This document shows, one piece after another, positions 19,212 through 37,261 of a stretch of 38,232 nucleotides of DNA; position 1 is the first letter of the stretch, and every line of letters starts with the position of its first letter. Source of the stretch: an uncultured Dehalococcoidia bacterium (GTDB taxonomy: Bacteria > Chloroflexota > Dehalococcoidia > Lucifugimonadales > UBA3495); contig CAYOAF010000054.1 in NCBI GenBank assembly GCA_964401855.1, positions 1 through 38,232 of the forward strand, read 5' to 3'. The position numbers and the translations under genes are program-made. Under the pieces are notes generated by a model. The model did not search any database and had not been told where the DNA came from. It worked only from the letters and a program-made list of their open reading frames with translations.

Positions 19212-19242
19212 TGCCCGGTCAACCTAGTCTTGGTAGGATGTC

Positions 19243-19341
19243 ATTCTGAGGAGCGGAGCGACGAAGAATCTCATTGCAACGCCGAGATTCTTCGGTTCGC
19301 TGCTCTGAAAATCCCCCCCTTCTTCCTCGGGGAGAAGGGGG
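19243..19341. repeat. Two adjacent hairpin elements (REP-like) in the hemC / cobA-hemD spacer
   Basis: Hairpin 1 has arms attctgaggagcggagcgacgaagaatctc (19243-19272) and gagattcttcggttcgctgctctgaaaat (19284-19312). The pairing is imperfect, about 29 bp. Hairpin 2 has arms cccccttct (19315-19323) and agaaggggg (19333-19341). Confidence 0.6.
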
Positions 19342-19370
19342 CAAGGGGATGAGGGACGCGGGAGACAGAT

Positions 19371-20888
19371 ATGCCCGGTAGAGTTTACCTGGTGGGCGCC
19401 GGCCCCGGTGACCCGGGGCTGCTCACGGTAAAGGGGCTTCGCTGCCTGGAACGAGCGGAGGTGGTGGTCTACGACCGCCTGCTGGACCCGTCGCTGCTGC
19501 AGGCGGCTTCGGCGTCGGCGGAGCGCGTGTTCGTGGGCAAGGAGCGGGGGCGGCAGGCCCTGACCCAGGACGAAATCAACCAGGTGTTGATCGACCGTGC
19601 CCGCGCCGGCCTGGAGGTGGTGCGCCTCAAGGGCGGCGACCCCTTCGTCTTCGGCCGGGGCGGCGAGGAAGCTCTGGCCCTGGCCCAGCACGGCATCCCC
19701 TTTGAAGTTGTCCCCGGCGTAACCTCGCCCGTGGCGGCGGCGGCCTACGCCGGCATTCCCCTCACCCACCGGGGCATCGCCGCGACGTTTACCGTGGTCA
19801 GCGGCAGCGAGGACCCGTCAAATCCGGAATCGACCGTTTCCTGGGAAGCCCTGGCCTGCGCCGGAGGGACCCTGGTGGTGCTGATGGGCTGGACCGGGCT
19901 GGAAACCATCCTCACCACACTCCTCCGCCACGGTTTGGCCCCGGACACGCCGGTGGCTCTGGTCCAGTGGGGCACCTGGCCGAGACAGGTTACCGTCACT
20001 GGACGCCTGGACAACACCATCGACCGGGGCCGGGAGGCCGGGCTTGAGCCGCCGGTTATCGCCGTCATCGGAAGAGTAGTGGGGTTGCGGGAGCAACTCC
20101 GTTGGTTCGACCGCCGTCCCCTGTTCGGCAAAAAGGTCTTGATCACCCGGTCGCAGACCCAGGCGTCAAAGCTGCGGGAAATGTTGGCGGCCCTAGGCGC
20201 CCAGCCGGTGGAGCTTCCCACTATTCAGACGGCCCCCCTGGAGGATTACGCCGCGCTGGACGCCGCGCTGGCCCGGCTCGGCGGCTTCCGCTGGGTTATT
20301 TTTACCAGCATCAACGCGGTGGAGGCGGTATTCGCCCGCCTGGAACGGGGAGAAACGCGCCGGGACGCCCGGGCCTTCGGGAACGCGCAGATTGGGGCCA
20401 TCGGACCGGCTACGGCGGAGGCCTTGCAGCGCCGCGGGCTCATCGCCAACTTTGTGCCCGCCAGGTCGGTGTCGGAGGCGGTGCTGGAGGAGCTATCGGG
20501 CCGGGACTGGGCGAACGTGCCGGTTTTCCTGCCCGCGGCCGATATCGGCCGGGACGCCCTGGCCCAAGGACTGGCCCGTTTGGGCGCCAAAGTGGAGCGA
20601 GTGGCCGCCTACCGCACCGTCACCCCCCCGAACATCGACGACCAGGCCCGGGAGATCCTGGACCAGCGGGTAGACGTGGTGACCTTCACCAGCTCCTCCA
20701 CGGTGCGCAACCTTCTGGAGGCGCTGGATGGCGACGGGTCGGGTCTGAAATCCAGTATAATAGCGTGCATCGGTCCAGCTACCGCGGCCACAGCCCGTGA
20801 ACTGGGCTTGCACGTCGACCTGGTGGCCGAACGCCATACCGTCGAAGGGCTGGTCGAAGCCCTCGTCCAACACCTGGGCCATAGCTAG
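19371..20888 (+). CDS. cobA: Bifunctional uroporphyrinogen-III C-methyltransferase / uroporphyrinogen-III synthase
   Basis: The N-terminal half, 'VYLVGAGPGDPGLLTVKGLRCLERAEVVVYDRL...VRLKGGDPFVFGRGGEE', is SUMT. The C-terminal ~250 aa ('KKVLITRSQTQASKL...VIFTSINAV...VTFTSSSTVRN') is HemD. Confidence 0.9.
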   Translation: MPGRVYLVGAGPGDPGLLTVKGLRCLERAEVVVYDRLLDPSLLQAASASAERVFVGKERGRQALTQDEINQVLIDRARAGLEVVRLKGGDPFVFGRGGEEALALAQHGIPFEVVPGVTSPVAAAAYAGIPLTHRGIAATFTVVSGSEDPSNPESTVSWEALACAGGTLVVLMGWTGLETILTTLLRHGLAPDTPVALVQWGTWPRQVTVTGRLDNTIDRGREAGLEPPVIAVIGRVVGLREQLRWFDRRPLFGKKVLITRSQTQASKLREMLAALGAQPVELPTIQTAPLEDYAALDAALARLGGFRWVIFTSINAVEAVFARLERGETRRDARAFGNAQIGAIGPATAEALQRRGLIANFVPARSVSEAVLEELSGRDWANVPVFLPAADIGRDALAQGLARLGAKVERVAAYRTVTPPNIDDQAREILDQRVDVVTFTSSSTVRNLLEALDGDGSGLKSSIIACIGPATAATARELGLHVDLVAERHTVEGLVEALVQHLGHS

Positions 20889-20935
20889 TGCTCTATCCAG
20901 CAAGTTGTTGAACTCGGGGTGACCCTCATCCTAGC

Positions 20936-20992
20936 CTTCCACCTTCGTAAGGGGGAGGGAACTAGTCCTCTCCCCCTTACGAAGGTGGAGAG
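20936..20992. repeat. Near-perfect ~57-bp palindrome centred on ACTAGT (REP-like) in the cobA-hemD / hemB spacer
   Basis: The sequence is cttccaccttcgtaagggggaggga-actagt-cctctcccccttacgaaggtggagag. It contains a perfect 19-bp core, ccaccttcgtaagggggag / ctcccccttacgaaggtgg. Confidence 0.65.
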
Positions 20993-21034
20993 TTAGAGAG
21001 GGGTCCCTGCGACCACGTGAAAACGGAGGGACCC

Positions 21035-22018
21035 ATGGTTAGTTTTCCAGAACTGCGGCTCCGACGCCTGCGGGGACAGGAGCCCTTGAGGAGCATGATC
21101 CGGGAGACCTGCCTCTCCCCGGCCCAGTTCGTCTACCCCATGTTCGTGACCCACGGCAACGGAGTACGCGACCCCATCGAGCCCATGCCGGGCTGCTTTC
21201 ATCTTTCCCTGGACCGGCTGACCGAGGAGATTGGCGAGGTGGCCGAGCTGAGTATTCCATCGGTGCTCCTCTTCGGGCTGCCCGCGGAGAAGGACCCGTT
21301 GGGCACCGAAGGGTATGACCCGGAGGGCATTGTTCAGGAGGCGATTCGGGCCATCAAGCGGGACGTGCCCGATATGCTGGTGATCACCGACGTATGCGTC
21401 TGCGAGTACACCGACCACGGACATTGCGGCGTTGTTGAAAACGGCCGGGTGGACAACGACAAGACCCTGGACCTGCTGGCCCGGTCCGCCGTCTCCCACG
21501 TCCAGGCGGGGGCCGACCTGGTCGCCCCTTCCGCCATGATGGACGGGCAGGTCTGGGCGATACGGCAGGCGTTGAACGACCACGGGTACACCGATGTACC
21601 CATCATGGGGTACGCCGCCAAGTACGCCTCCGCCTTTTACGGTCCCTTCCGGGTGGCCGCGGACTCCACCCCCCAGTTCGGCGACCGCCGCAGCTACCAG
21701 ATGGACCCGGCCAACGTCCGCATGGCCATGCGGGAGATAGAGAGCGATATCGCCGAGGGGGCCGACATCGTCATGGTCAAGCCGGCGCTGTTCTACTTGG
21801 ACATCATCCGCCAGGCGAGGGAACGCTTCGACCTTCCCCTGGCCGCCTACAACGTGAGCGGCGAGTACTCGATGGTCAAGGCGGCGGCCCGCCAGGGCTG
21901 GGTCGACGAAAAGCAGGTGACCATGGAACTCCTGACCTCCATCAAACGGGCCGGCGCCGACATCATCCTCAGCTACCACGCCAAGGACGCCGCCCGCTGG
22001 CTAAAAGAGAGAGAATAG
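21035..22018 (+). CDS. hemB: Porphobilinogen synthase (delta-aminolevulinate dehydratase)
   Basis: 'RLRRLR', 'PMFV', 'DVCVCEYTDHGHCG' (Cys-rich Zn site), 'APSAMMDGQV', 'SAFYGPFR' and 'VKPA'. ATG at 21035 with GGAGGG 6 nt upstream. Confidence 0.92.
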   Translation: MVSFPELRLRRLRGQEPLRSMIRETCLSPAQFVYPMFVTHGNGVRDPIEPMPGCFHLSLDRLTEEIGEVAELSIPSVLLFGLPAEKDPLGTEGYDPEGIVQEAIRAIKRDVPDMLVITDVCVCEYTDHGHCGVVENGRVDNDKTLDLLARSAVSHVQAGADLVAPSAMMDGQVWAIRQALNDHGYTDVPIMGYAAKYASAFYGPFRVAADSTPQFGDRRSYQMDPANVRMAMREIESDIAEGADIVMVKPALFYLDIIRQARERFDLPLAAYNVSGEYSMVKAAARQGWVDEKQVTMELLTSIKRAGADIILSYHAKDAARWLKERE

Positions 22019-22099
22019 CCGCCGGTGCTTGCACCTAGCTGAGCCTACTCCCAGCAAAACGGGATGGGGTGAAAACGACATTATTGCGAAGGTCGGTTT

Positions 22100-23386
22100 A
22101 TGAATCTTTCCAGGTCTGAAAAGCTCTTTTCCAAAGCCCAGCAGCACATCCCCGGCGGGGTCAACAGCCCGGTACGGTCCTTCCGCGCCGTGGGCGGGAT
22201 CCCTCCGTTCATCGCCCGGGGCCAGGGCGCCAGGGTCTGGGACGTGGACGGCAACGAGTACATCGACTACTTGGGCTCCTGGGGCCCCCTGGTGCTGGGC
22301 CATGCCCACCCGGCGGTGGTCGACGCCGTCAAGAAGGCCGCTGCGGGGGGCACCAGCTTCGGTGCGCCAGTGGAGCAGGAGGTTGAACTGGCCCGGCTCA
22401 TCTGCGAGGCGTTGCCCTCGGTGGACATGGTCCGGCTGGTCAGCTCCGGCACCGAGGCATGCATGAGCGCCATCCGGATGGCCCGCGCCTTCACCGGCCG
22501 GGACAAGGTGGTCAAGTTCTCCGGCTGCTACCACGGCCACGCCGACGGCCTGCTGGTCAAGGCCGGCTCCGGGGCGTTGACCCACGGGGTGCCCACCAGC
22601 GCCGGGGTCCCCGCCTCCTACGCCAGCGAAACGCTGCTGGCCGACTACAACGGCCTGGCCTCGGTGGAGCGGCTGTTCACCGCCTATCCGGCGGACATAG
22701 CCGGGGTTATCGTGGAGCCGGTGGCGGGCAACATGGGGGTGGTGCCGCCGTCAAACGGTTTCTTGAAGGGATTGCGGGACCTGACGGCCCGGCACGGGGC
22801 TCTGTTCATCTTCGACGAGGTGATAACCGGGTTCCGCATTGCCTACGGCGGCGCCCAGGGCCTCTACGGCATCACACCTGACATCACCTGTCTGGGCAAG
22901 ATCATCGGCGGAGGCCTGCCGGTGGGCGCCTACGGCGGGCGGCGGGACATCATGGAGGTGGTCGCCCCCCTGGGCCCCATGTACCAGGCGGGCACCCTGT
23001 CCGGCAATCCCCTGGCCGTGGCCGCGGGAACGGCGGCGTTGCAAGAACTGCACCGCCCCGGCGCCTACGAACGGCTGGAGTCCCTGTCCCGCAGGCTCGT
23101 CGAGGGGCTGTCCGAGGTGTTCAGCCGCCTGGAGGTCCCCTCCACCGTCAACCGGGTCGGCTCCATGCTCACCGGCTTCCTCAACCCTGGGCCGGTGCAA
23201 ACGCTGGCCCAGGTAGAGCAGTCGGACGCGGCGCGGCACGGCCGGTTCTTTCACGCCCTCCTGGAAAGGGGCGTCTACACGGCGCCCTCCCAGTTCGAGG
23301 CAGGATTTGTCTCGCTGGCCCACACCGAGGATGATATAGACCGGACCATCGCGGTCGCCGAGGCGGCGCTCAAGGGTTCGGCTTGA
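22100..23386 (+). CDS. hemL: Glutamate-1-semialdehyde 2,1-aminomutase
   Basis: '[17 protein letters not shown]', '[18 protein letters not shown]', 'FDEVITGFR' and the PLP lysine context '[17 protein letters not shown]'. Confidence 0.92.
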
Positions 23387-23512: not shown

Positions 23513-23989
23513 CTACGACCCGTACCGCACGGCGGCGTTGGGATCGCTGTAGACGACGTTCTTGGTCGCCCAGAAAACCACGCTGATCCGGTCGACGGCG
23601 GCAACCAACTCCTGGGCCGCCTCCGGGTCCACGTTCTGCTTGTTGCGCCCGGCCAGCTTCTCCGCGTCCCAGAAGGTGGTGTGCAGGTCGGGATGCGCTT
23701 CCACGTGCTCCGGGCGGAAGTAGTCGGCCCAGAGGACCCGCAGCTCATGCTTGCAGATTTCCGCGTGTTCCTCCTTGACGGTCACGTACCGGGATACCGT
23801 GTTCGCGTAGCCTTGGACGGCTCCGGCGTCGGCGCCGGGATCGGGCGCCGCCAGGGCCTGGATGCGTTGCACCATTTTCTGTACCGTCTGGGCCGCGATC
23901 TTGGCGGCTATGGGGTCATAGATCCCGCAAGGGATGTCACAGTGGGCCTCGGCGATTTCCGCCTTGATCAGACCGAAAGGGTTGAACAC
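23513..23989 (-). CDS. sodN: Nickel superoxide dismutase precursor
   Basis: The Ni-hook 'HCDIPCGIYDP' comes after a 14-aa propeptide (MFNPFGLIKAEIAEA). 'VLWADYFRPEH' is also present. GTG start with GGAGGA 6 nt upstream. Confidence 0.9.
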   Translation of the reverse strand: MFNPFGLIKAEIAEAHCDIPCGIYDPIAAKIAAQTVQKMVQRIQALAAPDPGADAGAVQGYANTVSRYVTVKEEHAEICKHELRVLWADYFRPEHVEAHPDLHTTFWDAEKLAGRNKQNVDPEAAQELVAAVDRISVVFWATKNVVYSDPNAAVRYGS

Positions 23990-26060: not shown

Positions 26061-26222
26061 GTGGAGGAACACCTGCGGCGGGTAAAAGAGCGGGAGGACG
26101 TACAGCAATACATAAGAGGCTACCGAGAGCATCCGGAGACTCGAGTTGAACGGGCGGTGGCCGAGTCCACTTTACGCTACGCCTTTAATGACGAGTCATG
26201 GGAAGAAGCGTTTAGCAAATGA
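26061..26222 (+). CDS. Putative antitoxin (C-terminal part of a ribbon-helix-helix antitoxin)
   Basis: The frame is open from 26004 and its stop overlaps the toxin start in an ATGA. The translation is '...GASRSQVFRCAVEEHLRRVKEREDVQQYIRGY...NDESWEEAFSK'. The 'SRSQVFRCAVEEHLRR' stretch looks like RHH helix 2. No ATG is present, and the first usable start is GTG at 26061 (53 aa). Confidence 0.45.
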   Translation: MEEHLRRVKEREDVQQYIRGYREHPETRVERAVAESTLRYAFNDESWEEAFSK

Positions 26223-26536
26223 GGCGCGGTGAAATCTGGTGGGCCAACCTGCCTCCTCTGACTGGGCACCGGCCGGTGGTCCTGATTGCCCGGGACGAAG
26301 CTTATACTCATCGTGAATTGGTTACCGTGGCTCCCGTTACGAGGCGAATCAAGGGGATACCAGCGGAAGTGCCATTGGGACCGGAAGACGGCTTGCCCGC
26401 GAGTTGCGCGGCAAATCTCGACAGCATGACCACCGTTCCTAAAGATGCAATTCAACGGTACATCGCCAGCCTGCACCTCAAGAAAGTTCAAGCGGTAGAT
26501 TCCACCATCCACTTCGCCCTGGGGCTGGAGAGCTAG
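26219..26536 (+). CDS. Type II toxin, MazF/PemK-family mRNA interferase
   Basis: 105 aa: 'MRRGEIWWANLPP..GHRPVVLIARDEAY...LVTVAPVTRRIKGIPAEVPLGPEDGLPASCAANLDSMTTVPKDAI' is the PemK/MazF fold pattern. Confidence 0.85.
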   Translation: MRRGEIWWANLPPLTGHRPVVLIARDEAYTHRELVTVAPVTRRIKGIPAEVPLGPEDGLPASCAANLDSMTTVPKDAIQRYIASLHLKKVQAVDSTIHFALGLES

Positions 26537-26545
26537 CCGGGGTTG

Positions 26546-26612
26546 CACCACCGGAGTACTGGCCAATGACGCCAAGCTGGTTGGGCCGGCGTCGGAGGGT
26601 GCGGTGACCGGG
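26546..26612 (+). pseudogene. Diverged second copy of the ilvD 3' end (last 22 codons)
   Basis: By hand alignment, 55 of 67 nt are identical to 25918-25984 with no indels. The translation is [22 protein letters not shown], against [22 protein letters not shown] in ilvD. Confidence 0.6.
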
Positions 26613-27714: not shown

Positions 27715-29061
27715 ATGAAATTACTAGCTCCGGCATTCGCGGCTTCAGCGTTGGTAGCGTTGGTAGCTTTGGTGGTTGCCTGTGCCAACCCGGTGGCAAC
27801 CGCCACCTCCGTCCCGTCGCCCGTCCCGCTTCCCACGATCACTTTGCCCACTTCAACGATTCCTCTCCCGCCCACAGCCACGGCAGCCCCCATGGCAACT
27901 CCACTGCCCAGCGCCACCGCGACGCCCCGGCCGGCCTCTACACCCGTACCTACGGCGGTCCCCACTGCCACACCCACTCCTACTTCGACTCCTATTCCTA
28001 CGCCTACGCCTATCCTGACGGCGACCCCCCTGCCGACTTCCACCCCGGCGCCGGCCGCTATGCCTACGCCTATCCCGACGGCGACCCCCCTGCCGACTTC
28101 CACCCCGGCGCCCACCTCTACCCCCGTGCCGGCCGCTACGGCTACCCCCACGACGGTTCCCACTCCCACGCCACCTCCCACTCCGGCCGGAAGCAGCGCG
28201 GAAGGCCAGTTCAAGCGTCCCGAGGGCATATCCTTCGATCAAGTGAATTCGGTGGTATATATGGGCGATACCGGAAACCACCGGATCCAGGAGTTCACCG
28301 AGGTCGGTGTCTTCGTATTAGCTTGGGGCAGCGAGGGTGCCGGGGATGCCCAATTCCTGGAGCCAGGGGGGATGGCATTTGACTCAACGAATCGTCACTT
28401 TTACGTGGCCGACACCGGCAACCACCGGGTGCAGAAGCTCACCGGCGGCGGAAGTTTCGTGGTAAAGTGGGGCAGCGAGGGCAGCGGCGATGGCCAGTTC
28501 AACTCGCCATCTGCAGTCCTCGTCGATGAAGTGAGGAAGTACGTCTACGTGATCGACTCCGGGAATCACCGGGTACAGAAATTCACCTCCCTCGGCATAT
28601 ACCTCGACCAGTGGGGCACTGAGGGCAGCGGCGATGGCCAGTTCCAGAACCCCGGCGGCATAGCGAGGGACGAAGACGGCTTCGTCTACGTCTTGGACAC
28701 GGGAAACCACCGGGTTCAAAAGTTCACCTCTGCTGGTTTGTACCAAAAGCAATGGGGAACCCAGGGCGAGGGCGAGGGCCAGTTCCAGAGCCCCAGGGGC
28801 ATCGCTTACGATGAGTCGGATGAACGGATATTTGTCGCCGATACCGGCAATAACAGGGTGCAGAAATTCATGCCTGCCGGGACCTTCGTGAAGGAGTGGG
28901 GCGCCGAGGGCAGCGGCGACGGTCAGTTCAAGGGCCTCACCGGGCTGGTGGTCGACGAATCAGCGTATCTCTTCGTTGCCGATACTGGGAACCACCGGGT
29001 CCAGAAGTTCGACCTGGACGGCGGGTTCAAAGCGAAGTGGGGCTCATCCGGCGGCGGTTGA
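27715..29061 (+). CDS. Secreted lipoprotein: signal peptide/lipobox, ~140-aa Pro/Thr/Ala linker and a six-bladed NHL-repeat beta-propeller
   Basis: 'MKLLAPAFAASALVALVALVVAC' carries the lipobox VVAC. It is followed by a P/T/A-rich tract. Six ~47-aa units follow, of the form 'F..P.G...D......YV.DTGNHRVQKFT..G.....WG.EGSGDGQ'. Confidence 0.85.
   Translation: MKLLAPAFAASALVALVALVVACANPVATATSVPSPVPLPTITLPTSTIPLPPTATAAPMATPLPSATATPRPASTPVPTAVPTATPTPTSTPIPTPTPILTATPLPTSTPAPAAMPTPIPTATPLPTSTPAPTSTPVPAATATPTTVPTPTPPPTPAGSSAEGQFKRPEGISFDQVNSVVYMGDTGNHRIQEFTEVGVFVLAWGSEGAGDAQFLEPGGMAFDSTNRHFYVADTGNHRVQKLTGGGSFVVKWGSEGSGDGQFNSPSAVLVDEVRKYVYVIDSGNHRVQKFTSLGIYLDQWGTEGSGDGQFQNPGGIARDEDGFVYVLDTGNHRVQKFTSAGLYQKQWGTQGEGEGQFQSPRGIAYDESDERIFVADTGNNRVQKFMPAGTFVKEWGAEGSGDGQFKGLTGLVVDESAYLFVADTGNHRVQKFDLDGGFKAKWGSSGGG
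28002..28112. repeat. 60-nt-period tandem duplication inside the P/T linker
   Basis: 28002-28052 and 28062-28112 (gcctacgcctatcc[t/c]gacggcgacccccctgccgacttccaccccggcgcc) differ at one position. They encode PTPI(L/P)TATPLPTSTPAP twice. Confidence 0.8.
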
Positions 29062-29112
29062 CGCCGGCCTGATACGTAGCAGGCAGTCCATCCCCGCCCG
29101 GAACGGGCTTGC

Positions 29113-31545
29113 TCACTTCAGATCCACCACGGTTACCCCGTCCCCGCCGGGGCCTTCCCCGGAAGCGGAGGCCGCCACCAGGGGGTGGCCGTGCAGGTAG
29201 CCCCGCACGGCCAGGCGCAACGCGCCGGTGCCTATGCCGTGGATGATGCGGATTGAGCGCAGACTCTCGAGGGCGGCGTCGTTCAGCGACCCCTCAACCC
29301 GGGCCAGCGCCTCGTCGGCCCGGAGGCCTCTGACATCGATTTCCGTGGCAGCCGCGCGGCCGGTGGGGCGTCTGAAGAAAACCTGGTGCTGGGCCGCGGC
29401 TTGATGGCCCTCCGCCTGGCCCTCCAACTGGTACACCGGTATCTTGGCCCGCATGGTGCCCACCAGTACCTCCGCAAAGCCCTGTTCGTCGGGCGGGGTG
29501 ATCACCTCCACCGGACGCGCGATGCCCCGAACGTGCACCCGGTCACCGCTTCTGATCCGCTCCCACCATGGGGTACGCCGCACCTCTATCGGCTCCCAGC
29601 GAGGTGAACTGACCTGCCGGCGGGTTTCGGTGAGCCGGGCCCGCTCCCCTTGTAGCGCCTGGCGAGAGGCGGGACGGTCCAGCGCCCGTTCCGCCTCCTG
29701 GAGCCGGGCCAGCAGGTCGCTGATCCGGTCCTGCAACTCTTGCCGGGCCTCCTCGACCAGCTCCATCTTGGAGGTTTCCACGGAGGCCAACTGGGCTTCA
29801 ACTTCCGCCTGCTGCCGCTTGGCCAGGAGCAGGGCGGATTCCGCATCCCGGCGCAAAACGTCGATTACCCGCCGCTCCTCTTGAATCTCGCCCAGCAGGT
29901 CCTCGGTGACCCGGGCCTCCGTCGATAGAGAGGCGCGGGCCTGATCGATGATATCCGGGGGCAGGCCGAGGCGGGCCGCGATGGTCAAGGTGTAGCTCCG
30001 CCCCGGCAGGCCCATGGTGACCTTGTAGGTTGGCTCCAGGGTTCCAGTGTACAGGTCCACGCTGGCGTTAATCATCCCCGCCTGCTCCTGGACGTGCCGG
30101 GCCACGCCCCGGTGGTGGGTGGTCGCCACCAGCAGCACCCCCCGGTCTCGAAAGTGGCTCAGGATAGCTCCGGCCAGGGCCGAGCCCTCCTCCGGGTCGG
30201 TACTGGTGCCCAGTTCGTCCAGCAGCACGAGGGAATCGGCCGTCGCCCGCTCCATGATGGAGAGGATGTTGTGGATGTGAGAGCTAAAGGTAGACAAGGA
30301 CTGTTCGATGCTTTGCTGGTCGCCGATGTCGGCAAAAACGCCATCACACCGGGGGAAGTGGGCTTCATCTGCCGGGATGTGAAGCCCGGACTGGGCCATC
30401 AACGCCAACAGCCCCACCGTCTTCAGGGTGACGGTCTTTCCCCCGGCATTGGGCCCGGTGATGAGCATTACCCCCTGCTCGCCACCCAGCTCCAGGCTAA
30501 CGGGCACCACAGCCGCCGAAAGCAGGGGATGGCGCGCTCTGATTAGCCGCAGGTGGCGCGCCTGGCCAGACTGGCCGGAAACCGATGGGGCCGAACCGCT
30601 CACGGCGGTGGAGTAGCGTCCCTTGGCCACGTCCAGGTCCAGGCGGGCCAGCAAGTCGAGAGTCAGGAGAAGGTCGTCGCCGGCCTGGCCCACCGTATCG
30701 GACAGGCTCCGCAAGACCCTCTCCTCCTCCCGCTCCGCGGCCAGCCGGTTTTCCCGCCACCGGTTGCCCGGGTCGAGGGCCGGCAGTGGTTCGACAAACA
30801 CGGTGGCCCCGCTGTCGGACACGTCGTGGACAATGCCGGGCACCCGAGACCTCAGCTCGGCCTTGATCAACAGCACCAGCCGGCCGTTGCGCTGGGTAAT
30901 GATGGACTCCTGGATCACCTCCTGGCGCTGCAAGCGGCGGAGGTTGCGCTCCATGACCTCGTTCAATCGCGCATGGGCCGACCGCGCCTCATGGCGGAGC
31001 TGGCCTAGGGCCGGGCTGGCGCTATCCAGGACCTCTCCGGCGGGGCTAATCGCGGAGCCGACGGCCTGCTCGAGGACCACTAGGTCCGGCAAATTGTCCC
31101 CTACTCCGGAGAGCAGGGGGATCTCCTCGTGGCGTGAGAGATTGGTCCGGTTGTAGCGGGCGGCCGCGGCCAGCCCCCGGATGGCGTACAGCTCCTCGCC
31201 GCGCAAGAGGCCGCCCAAGAGGGCCCGTTGGACGTACTCTCGGAAGTCCACATCCGGGCCGAACTCCAGGGCCCCGCCATTGTCCAGGAACTGGCGGGAC
31301 TCCGAAGTCTCCTGCTGCCGCGTGGCGATCTCCAGCAGGTCGGCGGAGGGGGTCAGGGACAGCGCCGCCTCGTGGCCCATAACGGTGCGGGTGTAGCAGG
31401 CCAGCTTCTGCCGTATCTGGTCGAACTCCAGCAGGCGCACCGACTCGGAAAACCCGCCCACAACCCGGGCCGGCCCGGCAGCGTCCAACTGGGGTCTACC
31501 GGGGGTTATTTCGTCAGCGTCTTCGAACAAACCGGTCCCGCCCAT
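29113..31545 (-). CDS. mutS2: Endonuclease MutS2 (MutS paralogue with C-terminal Smr domain)
   Basis: Walker A 'ITGPNAGGKTVTLKTVGLLALMAQSG', 'LLDELGTSTDPEEG' and 'TTHH'. The C-terminal Smr reads 'IDVRGLRADEALARVEGSLNDA...IRIIHGIGTGALRLAVRGYL'. The ATG at 31545 lies 10 nt after the upstream stop. An alternative GTG at 31440 (VRLLEFDQI) is possible. Confidence 0.92.
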   Translation of the reverse strand: MGGTGLFEDADEITPGRPQLDAAGPARVVGGFSESVRLLEFDQIRQKLACYTRTVMGHEAALSLTPSADLLEIATRQQETSESRQFLDNGGALEFGPDVDFREYVQRALLGGLLRGEELYAIRGLAAAARYNRTNLSRHEEIPLLSGVGDNLPDLVVLEQAVGSAISPAGEVLDSASPALGQLRHEARSAHARLNEVMERNLRRLQRQEVIQESIITQRNGRLVLLIKAELRSRVPGIVHDVSDSGATVFVEPLPALDPGNRWRENRLAAEREEERVLRSLSDTVGQAGDDLLLTLDLLARLDLDVAKGRYSTAVSGSAPSVSGQSGQARHLRLIRARHPLLSAAVVPVSLELGGEQGVMLITGPNAGGKTVTLKTVGLLALMAQSGLHIPADEAHFPRCDGVFADIGDQQSIEQSLSTFSSHIHNILSIMERATADSLVLLDELGTSTDPEEGSALAGAILSHFRDRGVLLVATTHHRGVARHVQEQAGMINASVDLYTGTLEPTYKVTMGLPGRSYTLTIAARLGLPPDIIDQARASLSTEARVTEDLLGEIQEERRVIDVLRRDAESALLLAKRQQAEVEAQLASVETSKMELVEEARQELQDRISDLLARLQEAERALDRPASRQALQGERARLTETRRQVSSPRWEPIEVRRTPWWERIRSGDRVHVRGIARPVEVITPPDEQGFAEVLVGTMRAKIPVYQLEGQAEGHQAAAQHQVFFRRPTGRAAATEIDVRGLRADEALARVEGSLNDAALESLRSIRIIHGIGTGALRLAVRGYLHGHPLVAASASGEGPGGDGVTVVDLK

Positions 31546-31555
31546 CAGGTCTGTG

Positions 31556-32320
31556 TCACCACTCGATTACCCAGACTCGGCTTTCCCGGAGCATACCGGC
31601 CACCCTCTCCAGGGCCTCGTGTTTCGGCTCGCGCACGTTCAACCGGCGTCCCAGGATCCTGCCCCGCCATCGCTCCAGGTAGTCGCACGCCTTCATGAAC
31701 CCATCCAGGGTAAACCTCTCGCCGCCCAGCAAGATATAGTCAAGCTGCCCGGCGAAGGGGTCGAACTGGCGCTGGGCGGCCCCGCAGGCCTTGTCGTAGA
31801 GCCGTTGCACCTGGCCCTCCCGGATGCGCTGAAACCGCTTTTGGGAGGTGCCGCCGGCGTGGTGGCGCCCTTTCACGTACCGGGTATCGGTCTTGGAGGA
31901 CAGCAGCCGCCCGCCCTTGTAAACCGCCACCAGAAAACGGCCCAGCCGGAGCAAGACCACCCCGACGGTGTAGTCCGTCTCCAGCAATCCCAGCAGAGGA
32001 GCGGTATCCCAGGAAGGGACCAGATCGTTTCCGGCCAGCGGAAAGGGCGGCGCGATCACCAACGCCTCCGGCCCGGCCCGCAGGCCGGCGATACCGGTGT
32101 CCGAGTTCAAAACCGGGCGTCCTATCCGATCAAGGCGGTCGCGCCAGGCCCGGCCCTCGGAGCCGGATGCTTCCAGGAATTCCCCTGCTTCCCCAGGACG
32201 AACGTACACCGAGGACGCCGGACCGCCCGGCGGCTCATATCCGGCCAGCAGCCCTTCGAGCTTTGCCTTGCTCAGGAGCTGACCTGGTTGAATTGCGGCT
32301 GGGCCGGCGTGTTGAGTCAT
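31556..32320 (-). CDS. Vms1/ANKZF1-like (VLRF1-domain, eRF1-fold) putative peptidyl-tRNA hydrolase, bacterial acVLRF1-type
   Basis: 254 aa. 'DTRYVKGRHHAGGTSQKRFQRIRE' matches my recollection of the VLRF1 catalytic-loop region of Vms1/ANKZF1 (RYTVR..QGGSQS). No HMM search could be run. Confidence 0.7.
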   Translation of the reverse strand: MTQHAGPAAIQPGQLLSKAKLEGLLAGYEPPGGPASSVYVRPGEAGEFLEASGSEGRAWRDRLDRIGRPVLNSDTGIAGLRAGPEALVIAPPFPLAGNDLVPSWDTAPLLGLLETDYTVGVVLLRLGRFLVAVYKGGRLLSSKTDTRYVKGRHHAGGTSQKRFQRIREGQVQRLYDKACGAAQRQFDPFAGQLDYILLGGERFTLDGFMKACDYLERWRGRILGRRLNVREPKHEALERVAGMLRESRVWVIEW

Positions 32321-32339
32321 TAGCTATAACCTTGGTGAG

Positions 32340-32348
32340 ATTTTATCA
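32340..32348 (-). promoter_or_regulatory. Candidate extended -10 promoter for the VLRF1-mutS2 pair
   Basis: The minus strand reads TGATAAAAT (TGn + TAAAAT), with its 3' end 19 nt upstream of the VLRF1 ATG. I could not find a convincing -35. Confidence 0.3.
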
Positions 32349-32554
32349 CCCCCCTGGGCCGGCCGTGGGAACCGGGACTTGGAGCACAATGGGGCCTGGC
32401 AACTAGCTGACTGTTCAACGCTGGACACTACGAGGCCACGAGTATTTGCCCGCCGACACGGTTTTTGCTACACTAGGCCGGTGATTCGATTCCCCTAGCC
32501 ACAGCCACCCATCGGCATGGGTCGCCATTGAAACCAATCGGAGAAGGAGTGGCC

Positions 32555-33175
32555 ATGATCTACGAAGTCCGCACCTATACTCTCAAGCCCGGCTCGGTGC
32601 CTCAATTCGAGGAGAATTTTGCCAAGGCCCTACCCTTCCGGGAGAAGTTTTCCAAGCTGGGCGCCTTCTGGCACACGGAAATTGGACCCTTGAACCAGGT
32701 GATCCACGTGTGGCCGTACGAGAGCGTAGAGGAGCGCAACCGGATCCGCGCCGAGGCGGTGAAGGACCCCAACTGGCCCCCACATAACCCTCCCGACATG
32801 TACGTCGGCCAGGAGACGGAGATTTTCGTCCCCGCCCCGTTCATGCGGCCCCTTGGTGGCGACCAGGCCCTGGGCGACATCTACGAGATGCGTATCTACA
32901 CCTACAGGACCGGGACCATGGCCCAGGTAGTCAAGCTGTGGGCGGAGTCGATTCCCCACCGGGAAAAGTTCTCGCCTCTGGCGGCCGGCATGTACAGTGA
33001 AATCGGCGGGTTGAACAAATGGATCCACATATGGCCCTACAAGGACCTGGCGGAGCGCAACCGGGTCCGCGCCGAGGCCGCCAAAACCCCCCATTGGCCG
33101 CCGGCCACCCGGGAGTTCCTGGTAAAGCAAGAGAACAAGATAATGGTGCCGGCCTCCTTCTCGCCGATGCACTGA
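32555..33175 (+). CDS. NIPSNAP-family protein (two tandem NIPSNAP domains)
   Basis: 'MIYEVRTYTLKPGSVPQFEENF...GAFWHTEIGPLNQVIHVWPYESVEERNRIR' is repeated as 'IYEMRIYTYRTGTMAQVVKLW...GMYSEIGGLNKWIHIWPYKDLAERNRVR'. ATG at 32555 with AAGGAG upstream. Confidence 0.8.
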   Translation: MIYEVRTYTLKPGSVPQFEENFAKALPFREKFSKLGAFWHTEIGPLNQVIHVWPYESVEERNRIRAEAVKDPNWPPHNPPDMYVGQETEIFVPAPFMRPLGGDQALGDIYEMRIYTYRTGTMAQVVKLWAESIPHREKFSPLAAGMYSEIGGLNKWIHIWPYKDLAERNRVRAEAAKTPHWPPATREFLVKQENKIMVPASFSPMH

Positions 33176-33245: not shown

Positions 33246-33278
33246 TTGTGGTCCCCCACATATGGTGGGGGACCACAA
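33246..33278. repeat. 14-bp inverted repeat with a 5-nt spacer
   Basis: ttgtggtcccccac-atatg-gtgggggaccacaa. It lies 70 nt after the NIPSNAP stop and about 210 nt upstream of the erythrin-VIT1 gene. Confidence 0.6.
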
Positions 33279-33489
33279 TCAGATTTCCAACCCGTTCGGA
33301 ATCAGCAAGGCATTCGTTGAGCGCCATTGTCGGGGTGATGGTCTCAGCTATGTTCGTTATGCCGACGTACCTCGTTTCCCAGTCCCTTCTCGCAAGCCTG
33401 ACGGTACCCTTTCGCGCTCCACCTGCCACCGCAGCGGGTACCGGCGGCGGCGCACTGTTTGGGCCCATGCCCGCGAAAGGACACCAACC

Positions 33490-34749
33490 ATGAGTTCAGA
33501 ATCTCCCGCCCTGACCAAGACAGAGAGAAACCTGTGGAACGCCATCGTAGCCGAGGCGCTGGCCCACCTGAAATATAACGCCTATGCCCATAAGGCGCTG
33601 GAGGAAGGGCTCCCCGAGGTAGCCCAGATATTTCAGGAGGTGGCGGGGGCCGAGACGATTCACGGTATTAACCACCTGCGGGTGTCCGGTGACATCGGGA
33701 CCACGGCGGAGAACCTGCACACCGTCGCGGTCGGGGAGTCCAAGGAGGCCAGCACTCTGTACCCGCGGATGATTCAAGACGCCCTGGCAGAGGGCCGCAC
33801 CGACGCCGCCGATTCATTTGGCATGGCCCTGGAACGGGAGCGCCACCACCTGGAGATGTTCACTCAGGCACTGGAGCAACTGCAAGCGCGGCAGCGCGGC
33901 TGTTCGGCGCCCGCCGATGTAGTTGAAGAGGTTTCAGCCCCTACGGATGCGGAATCCGGCCCGGCCATCGGGGACGCCCCGGCGCCGCCGCCGGCGGGGG
34001 CCATGACCGTTCCCGCTTCGGAGCTGGAAACCTACGTCACCGCGGCCATGGAGGTAGACCGGGAGCGCTGGCGAGTCGCCTCGATGGGTAGATTACGTGA
34101 GGTGGTTTTCGGGGCCCAGGACGGCATCCTGAGCACGCTGGCCCTGGTGACCTCGGTGGCCGTGGCGGTGGACCAAACCTCCACCGTGCTGGTGGCCGGG
34201 CTGGCCGGGGCCCTGGCCGGGATGATCTCGATGGCGACGGGGGCTTACCTGGGTTCCCGGGCCGAGCAGGATGTTTGGCGCGCCGAGATTGCCCGGGAAG
34301 CCGAGGAGCTGGAATCCAACCCCGCGGAGGAGTTGGCCGAGTTGACGGTGATCTTCCAGCGCGAAGGGAAGACCTACGAGGAGGCCCGCCGCCTGTCCGA
34401 CCAGATCGCCGAGGACAAGGACCTCTGGCTGCGCACCCTGGTGGAGAAGGAGCTGGGAATCAGCCCCGAAACGACGGCCAGTCCCATCAAGGATGCATTC
34501 GCCATGGGGCTTTCCTTCACCCTGGCCGCCCTGGTGCCCATCGTTCCCTACATGGTGCTGGACGGAGGGGCCGCCATTGCCGTCTCCGTGGCGGCGGCCC
34601 TCGCGGGCCTGTTCGCGCTGGGGATGGGTAAAGGGCGCCTGGTCCGGAAATCGCCCATTCTACAGGGCTTGGAGATTCTCGGAATCGGCGTGGTCTCTGC
34701 CGCCGTCGGATTCGGTCTGGGTGACGTTATACCCCGGCTGGTGACCTAG
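33490..34749 (+). CDS. Erythrin-VIT1 fusion (rubrerythrin/ferritin-like N-domain + VIT1/CCC1 membrane domain; MbfA-type iron/manganese transporter)
   Basis: The N-domain 'TERNLWNAIVAEALAHLKYNAYAHKALEEG...FQEVAGAETIHGINHL...ESKEAS..YPRM' is ferritin-like with E-x-x-H motifs. The C-terminal 'REVVFGAQDGILSTLALVTSVA...' plus TM segments is VIT1. I place the start at the ATG at 33490; the upstream extension is unsupported. Confidence 0.8.
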   Translation: MSSESPALTKTERNLWNAIVAEALAHLKYNAYAHKALEEGLPEVAQIFQEVAGAETIHGINHLRVSGDIGTTAENLHTVAVGESKEASTLYPRMIQDALAEGRTDAADSFGMALERERHHLEMFTQALEQLQARQRGCSAPADVVEEVSAPTDAESGPAIGDAPAPPPAGAMTVPASELETYVTAAMEVDRERWRVASMGRLREVVFGAQDGILSTLALVTSVAVAVDQTSTVLVAGLAGALAGMISMATGAYLGSRAEQDVWRAEIAREAEELESNPAEELAELTVIFQREGKTYEEARRLSDQIAEDKDLWLRTLVEKELGISPETTASPIKDAFAMGLSFTLAALVPIVPYMVLDGGAAIAVSVAAALAGLFALGMGKGRLVRKSPILQGLEILGIGVVSAAVGFGLGDVIPRLVT

Positions 34750-35851: not shown

Positions 35852-36517
35852 ATGACCACTCAGGCGATTACATTGGAACTGGAGCCCAGGGAGTTGCTGG
35901 GCAAGAAAGTGAAACAGTTGCGGCGCACGGGGATCATCCCGGTCCACCTGTATGGACCGGGGGTGGAGTCCCGTTCCTTGCAATGCCAGGCCCAAAAGCT
36001 CATCCAGGTGCTGGTCCGGGCCGGCGGCAGCACACCGATCACGGTCACTGTGCGGGGTGGGCAGGGCAGCCATCTCGCGTTCGTCCGGGAGATCCAGTGG
36101 GACCCCAGGCGGGACGATCTCCTCCACGTTGATCTGCTGGTGGCGGAAGCCAACCGGATGGTGCGGGCCCAGGTGCCCATCACCCTCGTCGGTGAGTCGC
36201 CGGGCGCCAGGATCGCCGGCGGGACAATAATGCATCAGCTTCACGAGTTGGATGTGGAGGCGCTGCCTCTGGAGATGCCTAGCCAGGCAGAGGTAGACCT
36301 GGCCCTTCTGACCGAGCCGGATGGTGTCGTAAGGGCCGGTGATATCAACTTGCCCTCCAACGTGACGGTGCTGACCGACCTCGACGAGGTGGTGGTCCGG
36401 ATCGAGCTCCCCAGGGTGGTGGCGGAAGAAGAAGCGGTCTCCGAGGAAGCCGCTGGGGGACAAGCCGACGCCGGGGAAACGCCGGCCGATGCGGAGAGTT
36501 CGGACACCGAGGAATAG
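35852..36517 (+). CDS. rplY: 50S ribosomal protein L25 / general stress protein Ctc
   Basis: 'LELEPRELLGKKVKQLRRTGIIPVHLYG...' and '...LLHVDLL', with an acidic C-terminal tail. Length 221 aa is typical of the Ctc form. Confidence 0.9.
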   Translation: MTTQAITLELEPRELLGKKVKQLRRTGIIPVHLYGPGVESRSLQCQAQKLIQVLVRAGGSTPITVTVRGGQGSHLAFVREIQWDPRRDDLLHVDLLVAEANRMVRAQVPITLVGESPGARIAGGTIMHQLHELDVEALPLEMPSQAEVDLALLTEPDGVVRAGDINLPSNVTVLTDLDEVVVRIELPRVVAEEEAVSEEAAGGQADAGETPADAESSDTEE

Positions 36518-36677: not shown

Positions 36678-36706
36678 TTTACATGGGTGAAACGGAGGAA
36701 TACAAT
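36678..36706 (+). promoter_or_regulatory. Candidate sigma-70 promoter for greA
   Basis: TTTACA (36678-36683), a 17-nt spacer, then TACAAT (36701-36706). The ATG that opens the computed 192-aa ORF (36683) lies at the 3' edge of the -35 hexamer, which places it upstream of the predicted transcription start. Confidence 0.55.
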
Positions 36707-36714
36707 GCTGGAAA

Positions 36715-36758
36715 GGGAAGTGGCGGCCCTGTCCGCCATTTCCCATCTTGTTTTCTCC
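36715..36758 (+). terminator. Terminator/attenuator-like hairpin in the greA leader
   Basis: A 12-bp stem pairs gggaagtggcgg (36715-36726) with ccgccatttccc (36733-36744), including one G-U pair. The loop is ccctgt. The U-rich tract aucuuguuuucucc (36745-36758) follows. The element lies between the predicted promoter and the greA RBS. Confidence 0.45.
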
Positions 36759-36794
36759 TATGTACCTGGCCTGCGTGTCTAGGGGGAAAGGGCC

Positions 36795-37261
36795 GTGCCG
36801 CAGCCCATCTATCTGTCCCGGAAAGGGTTGAAAAACTACGGGTGGAGCTTGAACATCTCCAGACCGTGGGGCGTCACAACGTGGCGGAGCGCATCCAGCA
36901 ATTCCGGGAACGGGGCGGCACCGTGAGCAACGCCGAGTACGAGGAGGCCAAGAACGAGATGGCCTTCACCGAGGGACGCATCCTCTCGCTGGACAATATG
37001 ATCAGCAACGCCGTTATCATCGAAAAAAGCCATGGAGCAAGGGATGCGGTTGAGATTGGCGCCAAGGTAACGGTACTGCGCCAGGACGGAAAGACGTACC
37101 GGTACGCCATCACCGGCAGCGCTGAAGCCGACCCCGCCAAGGGGATGATCTCCAACATTTCCCCCATCGGGAAAGGCCTGCTGGGGAAACAGGTTGGCGA
37201 GGTTACCGAGGTGAGCGTGCCAGCCGGCAAGGTCAAGCTCGAAGTCCTTGCCATCGAGTAG
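36795..37261 (+). CDS. greA: Transcription elongation factor GreA (requires a -1 frame change at the A5 run 36831-36835, or reflects a 1-nt homopolymer error)
   Basis: Downstream frame: 'KLRVELEHLQTVGRHNVAERIQQFRERG...NAEYEEAKNEMAFTEGRILSLDNMISNAVII...ISNISPIGKGLLGKQVGEVTEV'. The GTG at 36795 has the RBS AGGGGGAAAGG and encodes MPQPIYLSRKGLK in the +1-offset frame. Joining the frames at the A-run gives a 155-aa canonical GreA. Confidence 0.8.

What the first reader, a model, noticed from the sequence alone, without database searches (positions are those of the whole stretch)
29113..32320. Vms1-like (VLRF1) peptidyl-tRNA hydrolase translationally coupled to MutS2: a candidate two-gene ribosome-collision 'split and release' module
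Seen in the sequence: a 254-aa ORF carrying 'RYVKGRHHAGGTSQKRFQR' ends 10 nt before the ATG of a full-length MutS2 with a C-terminal Smr domain. Both are on the same strand with no hairpin between them, and a single candidate promoter lies upstream of the pair. Established knowledge: the VLRF1 domain of eukaryotic Vms1/ANKZF1 is an eRF1-fold enzyme that releases nascent chains from peptidyl-tRNA on split large subunits. Bacillus subtilis MutS2 has been reported to recognise collided ribosomes and promote subunit splitting upstream of RqcH/RqcP. Smr domains cleave mRNA at collisions. Inference: the pair could form a self-contained rescue pathway in which MutS2 senses and splits and the VLRF1 protein releases the chain. 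That would be the bacterial counterpart of Vms1 action, and it could act with or instead of Ala-tailing. As far as I know, bacterial VLRF1 proteins have not been characterised experimentally, and I cannot tell from here whether this linkage has been reported.
Basis: partly seen in the sequence, partly recalled or inferred. Interest (0 to 1): 0.8.

Follow-up and report, generated by a model that had tools for sequence, protein, structure and literature searches.

The report
Vms1-like release factor paired with MutS2
In this marine Chloroflexota contig a small Vms1/eRF1-like release-factor gene lies directly in front of the ribosome-splitting ATPase MutS2, and the pairing recurs across about 140 related loci in two gene orders, which suggests a dedicated nascent-chain release factor for bacterial ribosome quality control that I did not find reported.

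Summary
On the minus strand, a 254-aa acVLRF1 gene (31556-32320; Pfam PF18859, E 2e-27; motif GGTSQ) is followed by a full-length MutS2 (29113-31545; TIGR01069, 727 bits).

- **Junction:** the gap is 10 nt if the ATG is used, or 94 nt if the GTG at codon 29 is used. No terminator lies between the genes.
- **Fold:** the AlphaFold model (pLDDT 94.5) matches aRF1/eRF1, Balon, Pelota and Vms1.
- **Linkage, window-like clade:** 76 of 80 species-representative Dehalococcoidia genomes have acVLRF1 followed directly by MutS2.
- **Linkage, distant clade:** in a Chloroflexota clade about 29% identical, 64 of 67 informative loci have the reverse order (MutS2 then acVLRF1) in unrelated flanks.
- **Smr domain:** the linked MutS2 proteins carry DxR rather than DxH, like the B. 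subtilis splitter, which does not cleave mRNA.
- **Literature:** the paper that defined acVLRF-1 calls prokaryotic VLRF-1 proteins standalone. No searchable paper links VLRF1 to MutS2. A 2024 paper states that no dedicated bacterial RQC termination factor is known.

Best reading: MutS2 splits collided ribosomes and acVLRF1 frees the chain from the 50S-peptidyl-tRNA. The mechanism is inferred, not shown. Whether RqcH co-occurs in these genomes could not be tested.

The parts
32340..32348 (-). Extended -10-like promoter element TGATAAAAT, 19 nt upstream of the acVLRF1 ATG
   Evidence: Read from the sequence. TGnTAnnnT occurs within 120 nt upstream of acVLRF1 in 45 of 79 clade-A loci, against 13 of 1338 coding windows, and upstream of MutS2 in only 10 of 76. 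It was not picked up by the two-hexamer consensus scan. Function is inferred.
31556..32320 (-). acVLRF1 gene (254 aa), a Vms1-like release factor with an eRF1 M-domain/RNase H fold
   Evidence: Pfam PF18859, 96.2 bits (cut-off 27.1). NCBIfam NF041024, 116.3 bits (cut-off 125). AF2 model pLDDT 94.5. Foldseek matches aRF1/eRF1 at E 3.5e-10 and Vms1 6r84_R at E 1.6e-4. The family profile matches aRF1 3agk at E 8e-22.
31841..31855 (-). Codons for the GGTSQ loop (residues 156-160), the family's GGxSQ catalytic-loop motif
   Evidence: G156, G157, S159, R162 and R167 are invariant in 41 diverse family members. The motif is defined in PMC6514570. In the model it lies in the loop between strand 138-146 and helix 158-189.
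31546..31555 (-). 10-nt spacer between the acVLRF1 stop (TGA) and the upstream ATG of MutS2
   Evidence: No terminator. No unusual RNA structure.
31459..31461 (-). Alternative MutS2 start (GTG, codon 29), giving a 782-aa product and a 94-nt gap
   Evidence: JGI gene call on the identical contig. Homology to TIGR01069 and B. subtilis MutS2 begins at residues 34-37. In many relatives an ATG lies 3 nt before the equivalent position.
29113..31545 (-). MutS2 gene (810 aa from the ATG): ABC-type ATPase, coiled coil, KOW/MSSS and Smr domains
   Evidence: TIGR01069, 726.6 bits, full length. MutS_V, MSSS (weak) and Smr. End-to-end alignment with B. subtilis MutS2 7qv3_v, E 2.4e-134. Walker A GPNAGGKT at 364 and Walker B DELGTST at 443.
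29116..29340 (-). Smr domain of MutS2 (residues 736-810), with DVRG (737-740) in place of DxH and HGIG (769-772)
   Evidence: Pfam Smr, E 2.2e-19. Motifs. The DLR/HGxG pattern of B. subtilis MutS2 supports ribosome binding, and no mRNA cleavage was detected there (PMC10897456).

Best explanation
The two genes form an operon for rescuing collided or stalled ribosomes in Chloroflexota.

- **Step 1, known by analogy.** MutS2 is a full-length orthologue of the B. subtilis collision sensor and splitter. [quoted passage not shown]
- **Step 2, inferred.** acVLRF1 is a small eRF1-M-domain protein without a codon-reading domain. It enters the vacated A-site side of that 50S, places its GGxSQ loop in the peptidyl-transferase centre and frees the nascent chain. 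It would do this either by hydrolysing the ester bond or, like Vms1/ANKZF1, by cutting the tRNA acceptor end.

acVLRF1 would thus be a dedicated termination factor for bacterial ribosome quality control.

Shown here: the identities, fold and motifs of both proteins; operon-like anatomy; and deep conservation of the linkage. Not shown: the substrate, the chemistry, and how the pair relates to RqcH Ala-tailing.
For: - **Identity and fold of acVLRF1:**. The GGxSQ loop and the following Arg-rich helix are the most conserved part of the family, which argues for a catalytic role aimed at the peptidyl-transferase centre.
- **MutS2 orthology:** it is an equivalog-level MutS2 with intact Walker motifs and the same DxR/HGxG Smr pattern as the B. 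subtilis splitter.
- **Linkage:** 76 of 80 species-representative genomes have acVLRF1->MutS2, and 71 of those 76 junctions are 150 nt or less, including 13 overlaps. A distant clade has MutS2->acVLRF1 in 64 of 67 informative loci, with MutS2 only about 38% identical and with different flanks. The pair also stays linked when a small gene is inserted between them.
- **Flank control:** other window neighbours recur within the 6-kb flanks less often than MutS2's 76 of 80. The counts are enoyl-CoA hydratase (ECH) 63, NIPSNAP 42, rubrerythrin-VIT1 36 and NHL 8 of 80.
- **Promoter-like element:** it is enriched before the first gene of the pair in both gene orders.
- **Literature:** MutS2 splitting yields 50S-peptidyl-tRNA. 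[quoted passage not shown]
Against: - There is no biochemical or genetic evidence for any bacterial VLRF1.
- The catalytic Gln is replaced by Ala or Ser in 25 of 84 clade-B loci and 4 of 72 clade-A loci, even though these are MutS2-linked. This would be unexpected if Gln-dependent hydrolysis were essential.
- Some family members are not next to MutS2 (L009, L022, L024, L064, L069, L175).
- The family is reported in Actinobacteria, a phylum that lacks MutS2. The protein can therefore work without MutS2.
- Clade A shows appreciable local synteny (ECH in 63 of 80 flanks), so its 95% adjacency is not made of independent events.
- Foldseek also matches non-catalytic relatives such as Pelota and Balon.
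- In B. subtilis, Pth already accounts for release.
Confidence: 0.55

Rival explanations
1. Pelota/ABCE1-like partnership. acVLRF1 binds the A site of the stalled 70S (lead) ribosome and acts as a cofactor that helps the MutS2 ATPase pry the subunits apart, as the eRF1-family protein Pelota/Dom34 does for the ABC ATPase ABCE1. Peptide release is secondary or absent.
For: Foldseek matches Pelota/Dom34 and the A-site hibernation factor Balon as well as eRF1. The catalytic Gln is dispensable in about 30% of clade-B members. Park et al. draw the parallel between Smr/MutS2 and the eRF1/Dom34 plus ABC ATPase systems. The tight operon fits a physical partnership.
Against: The GG-x-S loop and the Arg-rich helix are invariant across the family, whereas Pelota and Balon have lost this loop. 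The protein lacks the N and C domains that give Pelota its tRNA-like reach and its contact with the ATPase (254 aa). B. subtilis MutS2 splits ribosomes without such a cofactor.
Confidence: 0.18
2. ArfB-like action on the intact ribosome. acVLRF1 is a codon-independent release factor that hydrolyses peptidyl-tRNA on stalled 70S ribosomes before or independently of splitting. MutS2 then recycles the vacant ribosome, or simply shares regulation with it.
For: It has a release-factor fold with the GGxSQ motif. The family paper suggests that prokaryotic VLRF-1 proteins act as single-component release factors. Members exist without an adjacent MutS2, and the family is reported in MutS2-free Actinobacteria.
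Against: It has no ArfB-like C-terminal tail or codon/mRNA-channel sensor to recognise an empty A site. According to the family paper, the long VLRF-1 catalytic loop may suit a context where the small subunit is absent. Conserved adjacency to a splitter in two gene orders is most simply explained by sequential action on the splitter's product.
Confidence: 0.15
3. The pair acts on DNA, not ribosomes. MutS2 works as a recombination-suppressing Smr nuclease, as first described for it in other bacteria (from my own knowledge), and the RNase H-fold acVLRF1 is a nucleic-acid-processing partner.
For: MutS2 is annotated as an 'endonuclease'. [quoted passage not shown]
Against: The release-factor loop and rRNA-binding arginines are conserved. 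The Smr domain lacks the DxH nuclease histidine. It aligns end-to-end with the ribosome-bound B. subtilis MutS2. No DNA-repair genes are consistently nearby.
Confidence: 0.05
4. Inherited adjacency without functional coupling: the genes are neighbours through shared ancestry within one class.
For: All loci come from Chloroflexota, mostly Dehalococcoidia. Clade A retains other neighbours, with ECH in 63 of 80 and NIPSNAP in 42 of 80 flanks.
Against: The gene order is inverted between clades while adjacency and co-orientation are kept. The flanks are unrelated between clades. The pair survives insertions. The junctions are short or overlapping.
Confidence: 0.05

Closest known systems
Vms1/ANKZF1 (eukaryotic VLRF-1), the release factor of eukaryotic ribosome-associated quality control
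   Same: It belongs to the same VLRF-1 clade of the eRF1 superfamily, with a small-residue-plus-Gln catalytic loop followed by an Arg-rich helix. Vms1 acts after ribosome splitting, on a large subunit carrying peptidyl-tRNA.
   Different: acVLRF1 is a separate family (GGxSQ rather than GxuQ). It has no Rei1 zinc finger, ankyrin or VIM/Cdc48-binding parts. Sequence identity is about 12-13% in the structural alignment. Its link to a splitter is genomic (an operon with MutS2), which has no eukaryotic counterpart. Its chemistry, hydrolysis or CCA cleavage, is unknown.
B. subtilis RQC pathway (MutS2/RqcU, RqcH, RqcP/YlmH, Pth)
   Same: MutS2 is orthologous over its full length, with the same ATPase motifs and the same DxR/HGxG Smr pattern. 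The presumed product of splitting is the same 50S-peptidyl-tRNA.
   Different: In B. subtilis the chain is Ala-tailed by RqcH and released by the housekeeping Pth, and no dedicated release factor is known. Here a release-factor homologue is genetically tied to MutS2. Whether RqcH is present in these genomes is unknown.
Pelota/Dom34 (or eRF1) with the ABC ATPase ABCE1
   Same: An eRF1-superfamily protein is paired with an ABC-type ATPase that separates ribosomal subunits.
   Different: Pelota lacks the catalytic loop and has three domains. acVLRF1 keeps the loop and is essentially a single core with a short N-terminal part. MutS2 is a MutS-type rather than an ABCE-type ATPase, and it senses collisions through Smr/KOW.
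ArfB (YaeJ) and Balon
   Same: These are bacterial stand-alone A-site factors with a release-factor fold. Balon is an eRF1-superfamily member found in bacteria and appears among the Foldseek hits.
   Different: ArfB has the unrelated bacterial RF fold and a C-terminal mRNA-channel sensor. Balon is larger (360-375 residues in the matched chains). From my own knowledge, it lacks the catalytic loop and acts in hibernation with EF-Tu.

Membership tests
acVLRF-1 (Pfam PF18859; Burroughs & Aravind 2019) | Significant match to the family HMM above the curated threshold | tested here: met
   PF18859, 96.2 bits against a cut-off of 27.1, E 2.3e-27, covering 2-129 of 130 profile positions.
acVLRF-1 (NCBIfam NF041024 acVLRF1_NCBI) | Score at or above NCBI's curated cut-off (125 bits) | tested here: not met
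   116.3 bits. It is the best NCBIfam hit but falls below the cut-off. Of 10 other diverse family members tested, 9 also fall below it, so the cut-off appears narrow rather than the protein atypical.
acVLRF-1 | GGxSQ catalytic-loop motif followed by conserved arginines at the start of the next helix | tested here: met
   GGTSQ at 156-160, with R162, R165 and R167. G156, G157, S159, R162 and R167 are invariant in 41 members. The motif is defined.
acVLRF-1 | eRF1 M-domain (RNase H) fold without the stop-codon-binding and C-terminal domains | tested here: met
   AF2 pLDDT 94.5. Foldseek top hits are aRF1/eRF1, and Vms1 is also matched. The protein is 254 aa, against 345-437 residues for the matched a/eRF1 chains. 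How its N-terminal ~100 residues relate to the aRF1 N domain was not resolved (one search aligns profile positions 6-236 to aRF1 residues 7-267).
acVLRF-1 | Peptidyl-tRNA hydrolase or tRNA-cleaving activity on ribosomal complexes | not testable with these tools
   No experimental study of any bacterial VLRF-1 was found.
MutS2 (TIGR01069 equivalog) | Full-length match above the equivalog cut-off, with ATPase domain V and intact Walker A/B motifs | tested here: met
   726.6 bits against a cut-off of 400, covering model positions 3-790 of 790. GPNAGGKT and DELGTST are present.
MutS2 ribosome-collision sensor/splitter (B. subtilis type) | C-terminal KOW and Smr domains with the DxR/HGxG pattern used for disome binding | tested here: met
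   Smr, E 2.2e-19. MSSS/KOW scores 22.9 bits, below the 26.8 cut-off, but the region aligns colinearly with B. subtilis MutS2. DVRG and HGIG are present.
MutS2 ribosome-collision sensor/splitter (B. subtilis type) | ATP-dependent splitting of collided ribosomes | not testable with these tools
   Inferred from orthology only.
Bacterial RQC pathway (RqcH-dependent) | Presence of rqcH and rqcP/ylmH in the same genome | not tested
   None lies in the 38-kb window. In the survey, 26 of 41 Chloroflexota genomes have rqcH and 35 of 41 have mutS2.

The most novel reading that the evidence does not exclude
Many Chloroflexota run a compact, two-protein ribosome quality-control route. MutS2 splits collided ribosomes, and a dedicated Vms1-like factor encoded in the same operon releases the chain from the 50S subunit. 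This could happen without RqcH Ala-tailing, possibly by Vms1-like cleavage of the tRNA acceptor end rather than Gln-dependent hydrolysis, since the Gln is dispensable in a third of one clade. It would be the first dedicated RQC termination factor in bacteria, and a prokaryotic precedent for coupling splitting to VLRF-1-type release.
Probability: 0.4. Interest if true: 0.8.

Novelty: new variant of a known kind. Interest (0 to 1): 0.72.

Why it matters
How the nascent chain leaves the 50S subunit is the least understood step of bacterial ribosome quality control. A 2024 paper states that no dedicated termination factor is known and that the housekeeping Pth does the job in B. subtilis.

A release-factor homologue tied to the splitter MutS2 in two gene orders across a phylum gives a concrete, testable candidate for that step. 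It would also show that pairing a splitter with a VLRF-1-type release factor is not purely eukaryotic.

The proteins are small and soluble-looking, and MutS2 assays exist, so the hypothesis can be tested directly in vitro or by expression in B. subtilis.

Tried and rejected
- **Diverse alignment for the genome scan.** A 12-sequence alignment worked, but it returned only Dehalococcoidia, and only the best 80 of 189 hits.
- **Actinobacterial acVLRF1 neighbourhoods.** A third homology search seeded with P0143, the member that passes the NCBIfam cut-off, again gave Chloroflexota-type or unnamed proteins. Cluster look-up gave no taxonomy. A tblastn against plasmids found only haloarchaeal aRF-1 genes.
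- **RqcH co-occurrence.** The supplementary table of the rescue-factor survey is truncated in the library and has no Dehalococcoidia rows.
- **Sigma-70 and terminator consensus scan.** It found nothing in the region.
- **Junction RNA structure.** No signal.
- **Anti-phage defence models.** No acVLRF1 hit and only a trivial P-loop hit for MutS2, so a defence-system reading was dropped.
- **Loci without MutS2.** No recurrent alternative partner was found; the neighbours were BrkB, DUF3226, Uma2, DUF2779 and URO-D.
- **Codon-position test of the 28-aa MutS2 N-terminal extension.** Inconclusive.
- **Fusions.** No acVLRF1-MutS2 fusion protein appeared among the homologue lists; all were 345 aa or shorter.


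Full report
**1. Observation.**

Both ORFs lie on the minus strand.
- **acVLRF1 ORF:** it runs 32320->31556 (254 aa), contains RYVKGRHHAGGTSQKRFQR at residues 147-165, and stops at TGA 31558-31556.
- **Junction:** ten bases later, an ATG at 31545 opens an 810-aa ORF that ends at 29113.
- **Alternative start:** on an identical JGI contig the second gene is called 28 codons shorter, from the GTG at 31461-31459, which gives a 94-nt gap.
- **Where homology begins:** homology to the MutS2 equivalog model and to B. subtilis MutS2 starts at residues 34-37.
- **Coding test of the extension:** comparison with an 80%-identical relative shows the ATG and the reading frame conserved. The substitutions fall 5/5/10 over the three codon positions, which is not decisive.
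- **Terminator and structure:** no terminator-like site occurs anywhere in 28900-32700, and the junction RNA is no more structured than shuffled sequence.

The anatomy is therefore operon-like under either start. Strict translational coupling is plausible but unproven.

**2. What the two proteins are.**

*First protein (acVLRF1).*
- It matches Pfam acVLRF1 (PF18859, 96 bits, E 2.3e-27), and more weakly baeRF family 10 and eRF1 domain 2.
- The NCBIfam acVLRF1 model is its best hit but falls just under the curated cut-off (116.3 against 125). Nine of ten other family members tested also fall under it.
- In an alignment of 41 diverse members, the invariant positions are G156, G157, S159, R162 and R167 in the GGxSQ loop and the following helix, plus G76, G200 and P232 elsewhere. 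The loop residues are those that Burroughs and Aravind gave as the acVLRF-1 signature.
- An AlphaFold model built on that alignment is confident (pLDDT 94.5, pTM 0.89). It places GGTSQ in the loop between the third core strand and a long helix.
- Foldseek against the PDB returns aRF1/eRF1 first (E 3.5e-10), then Balon and Pelota/Dom34, and yeast Vms1 on the 60S subunit (6r84_R, E 1.6e-4, the highest query-normalised TM-score at 0.45).
- A family profile matches archaeal aRF1 at E 8e-22.

*Second protein (MutS2).*
- It matches TIGR01069 at 727 bits over the full length.
- It has MutS_V, a weak MSSS/KOW match and Smr, and intact Walker A and B motifs.
- It aligns end-to-end with the B. subtilis MutS2 seen on collided ribosomes (7qv3, E 2.4e-134).
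- Its Smr domain has DVRG and HGIG, the DxR/HGxG pattern of B. subtilis MutS2. Park et al. found that pattern necessary for ribosome binding, and they saw no mRNA cleavage.

**3. Is the adjacency more than chance or local synteny?**

*Clade A (window-like).* A scan of one genome per species returned 80 loci, all Dehalococcoidia/Chloroflexota, whose acVLRF1 is 47-80% identical to the window's.
- In 76 of the 80 loci, MutS2 lies directly downstream on the same strand.
- Using the longest MutS2 ORF, the junction is an overlap in 13, 0-20 nt in 23, 21-60 nt in 18, 61-150 nt in 17, and longer in 5.
- As a control, other window neighbours recur within the 6-kb flanks less often: enoyl-CoA hydratase (ECH) 63, NIPSNAP 42, rubrerythrin-VIT1 36 and NHL 8 of 80. 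This clade therefore retains real synteny, and its 95% figure is not made of independent events.

*Clade B (distant).* The decisive evidence comes from a second clade, about 29% identical to the window protein, with the motif VGTGLVHxRHxxGGSS and source names Chloroflexi or Dehalococcoidia.
- Three long contigs show MutS2 upstream of acVLRF1, in flanks unrelated to the window's.
- Across those five contig look-up loci and 80 metagenome-scan loci, 64 of 67 informative loci have MutS2 immediately upstream on the same strand. These MutS2 proteins are only about 38% identical to the window's.

*Other arrangements.*
- The linkage also survives insertion of a small gene: a 114-aa ORF in L090, and a HicB-like gene in L177.
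- Exceptions exist (L009, L022, L024, L064, L069, L150, L166, L173, L175). Their neighbours show no recurrent alternative partner.

*Promoter-like element.* An extended -10-like TGnTAnnnT motif is enriched in front of the first gene of the pair in both gene orders.

| Position tested | Loci with motif |
|---|---|
| Clade A, before acVLRF1 (first gene) | 45 of 79 |
| Clade A, before MutS2 (second gene) | 10 of 76 |
| Clade B, before MutS2 (first gene) | 17 of 29 |
| Clade B, before acVLRF1 (second gene) | 18 of 64 |
| Coding-sequence background | 13 of 1338 windows |

In the window the element is TGATAAAAT at 32348-32340. Coding sequence is an imperfect background for an intergenic motif, so this is supportive rather than conclusive.

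**4. Mechanism.**

Established knowledge comes from papers read here.
[quoted passage not shown] This yields a 50S subunit with peptidyl-tRNA.
- In eukaryotes the VLRF-1 protein Vms1/ANKZF1 frees the chain from the equivalent 60S complex by cleaving the tRNA CCA end.

*Inference.* In these Chloroflexota, MutS2 generates the obstructed 50S and the co-expressed acVLRF1 resolves it. Two points favour a catalytic role aimed at the peptidyl-transferase centre:
- The release-factor loop is the most conserved feature of the family.
- The protein has no codon-reading domain.

*Points that weaken the simple picture.*
- The Gln of GGxSQ is Ala or Ser in 25 of 84 clade-B loci and 4 of 72 clade-A loci. 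Either the Gln is not essential, which from my own knowledge holds for bacterial RFs where Gln mainly selects water as the nucleophile, or the chemistry is Vms1-like tRNA cleavage, or some members are non-catalytic.
- The last possibility feeds the main rival, a Pelota/ABCE1-like cofactor-plus-ATPase pair.
- A second rival is ArfB-like release on intact 70S ribosomes.
- DNA-related and pure-synteny readings are unlikely, for the reasons given under the rivals.

**5. Scope and limits.**
- Actinobacteria, the other home of the family according to its describers, have no mutS2 or rqcH in 3213 surveyed genomes. The linkage is therefore a Chloroflexota feature, and acVLRF1 can evidently work without MutS2.
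- I could not retrieve actinobacterial loci.
- I could not test whether genomes carrying the pair have rqcH. In the survey, 26 of 41 Chloroflexota genomes have rqcH and 35 of 41 have mutS2.
- The 38-kb window carries no rqcH, rqcP, pth, smpB or tmRNA.

**6. Novelty.**
- Both families are known.
- The paper that defined acVLRF-1 never mentions MutS2 or Smr, and it describes prokaryotic VLRF-1 proteins as standalone and independent of other RQC components.
- No searchable paper holds both VLRF1 and MutS2, or the term acVLRF1. The only paper holding both MutS2 and Vms1 states that bacteria lack a dedicated factor.
- The MutS2 mechanism paper does not mention Vms1, operon or neighbourhood.
- The library omits much subscription literature, so prior mention, for example in the 2022 Nature paper on MutS2, cannot be excluded.

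I rate this a new variant of a known kind: bacterial RQC with a genomically coupled Vms1-like release factor.

**7. Verdict.**

| Item | Rating |
|---|---|
| Observation | confirmed |
| Functional linkage | about 0.85 |
| Specific split-then-release mechanism | about 0.55 |
| Interest | 0.72 |

Noticed in passing
L090-L174 (clade B) and L010-L089 (clade A); window residue Q160 = 31843-31841 (-): The presumed catalytic Gln of the GGxSQ loop is replaced by Ala or Ser in 25 of 84 clade-B and 4 of 72 clade-A acVLRF1 genes, although these remain linked to MutS2. G-G-x-S and the following Arg residues stay invariant.
   Followed up: partly
L177 7070-7282 (also L087/L178); L090 5612-5956: Small genes are inserted between acVLRF1 and MutS2 without breaking the pair. 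One is a HicB-like antitoxin ORF (70 aa). The other is a 114-aa ORF with no Pfam match.
   Followed up: partly
window 16295-23386 (+): A tetrapyrrole cluster: NirD/L-like siroheme decarboxylase (AsnC-type), precorrin-2 dehydrogenase-like, HemC, a fused methylase-HemD, HemB and a class-III aminotransferase (probably HemL). This suggests the siroheme-dependent alternative haem route.
   Followed up: no
window 27715-29061 (+): An NHL-repeat beta-propeller protein with a ~150-residue Pro/Thr/Ala-rich low-complexity N-terminal linker after a signal-like start. It is convergent with MutS2, and the two gene ends are 51 nt apart.
   Followed up: no
window 33262-34749 (+) and 32528-33175 (+): A rubrerythrin-VIT1 fusion (iron handling) and a double-NIPSNAP protein lie divergent from the acVLRF1 promoter region. 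Both recur near the pair in about half of the clade-A genomes.
   Followed up: partly
window 35852-36517 (+), 36683-37261 (+): Ribosomal protein L25/TL5 (Ctc-type, with the C-terminal domain) is followed by GreA. No pth gene follows L25 here, although from my own knowledge the two are often neighbours in other bacteria.
   Followed up: partly
window 906-3458 (-); 23513-23989 (-); 11591-11667 (-): Two tandem family-III CoA-transferases, a nickel superoxide dismutase and a lone tRNA-Ile(GAT).
   Followed up: no
window ~26237-26554 (+), mapped from L001 10248-10565: A PemK-type toxin gene is called on the identical JGI contig. My own ORF choice on the opposite strand (26177-26575) had no Pfam hit. 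No antitoxin partner was looked for.
   Followed up: no
window 3615-5036 (+), 8599-9423 (+), 14772-15614 (+): Three sizeable ORFs (473, 274 and 280 aa) have no Pfam match. Their GC3 (0.62-0.69) is lower than that of neighbouring genes (about 0.8), so some may not be real genes or may be recent acquisitions.
   Followed up: no
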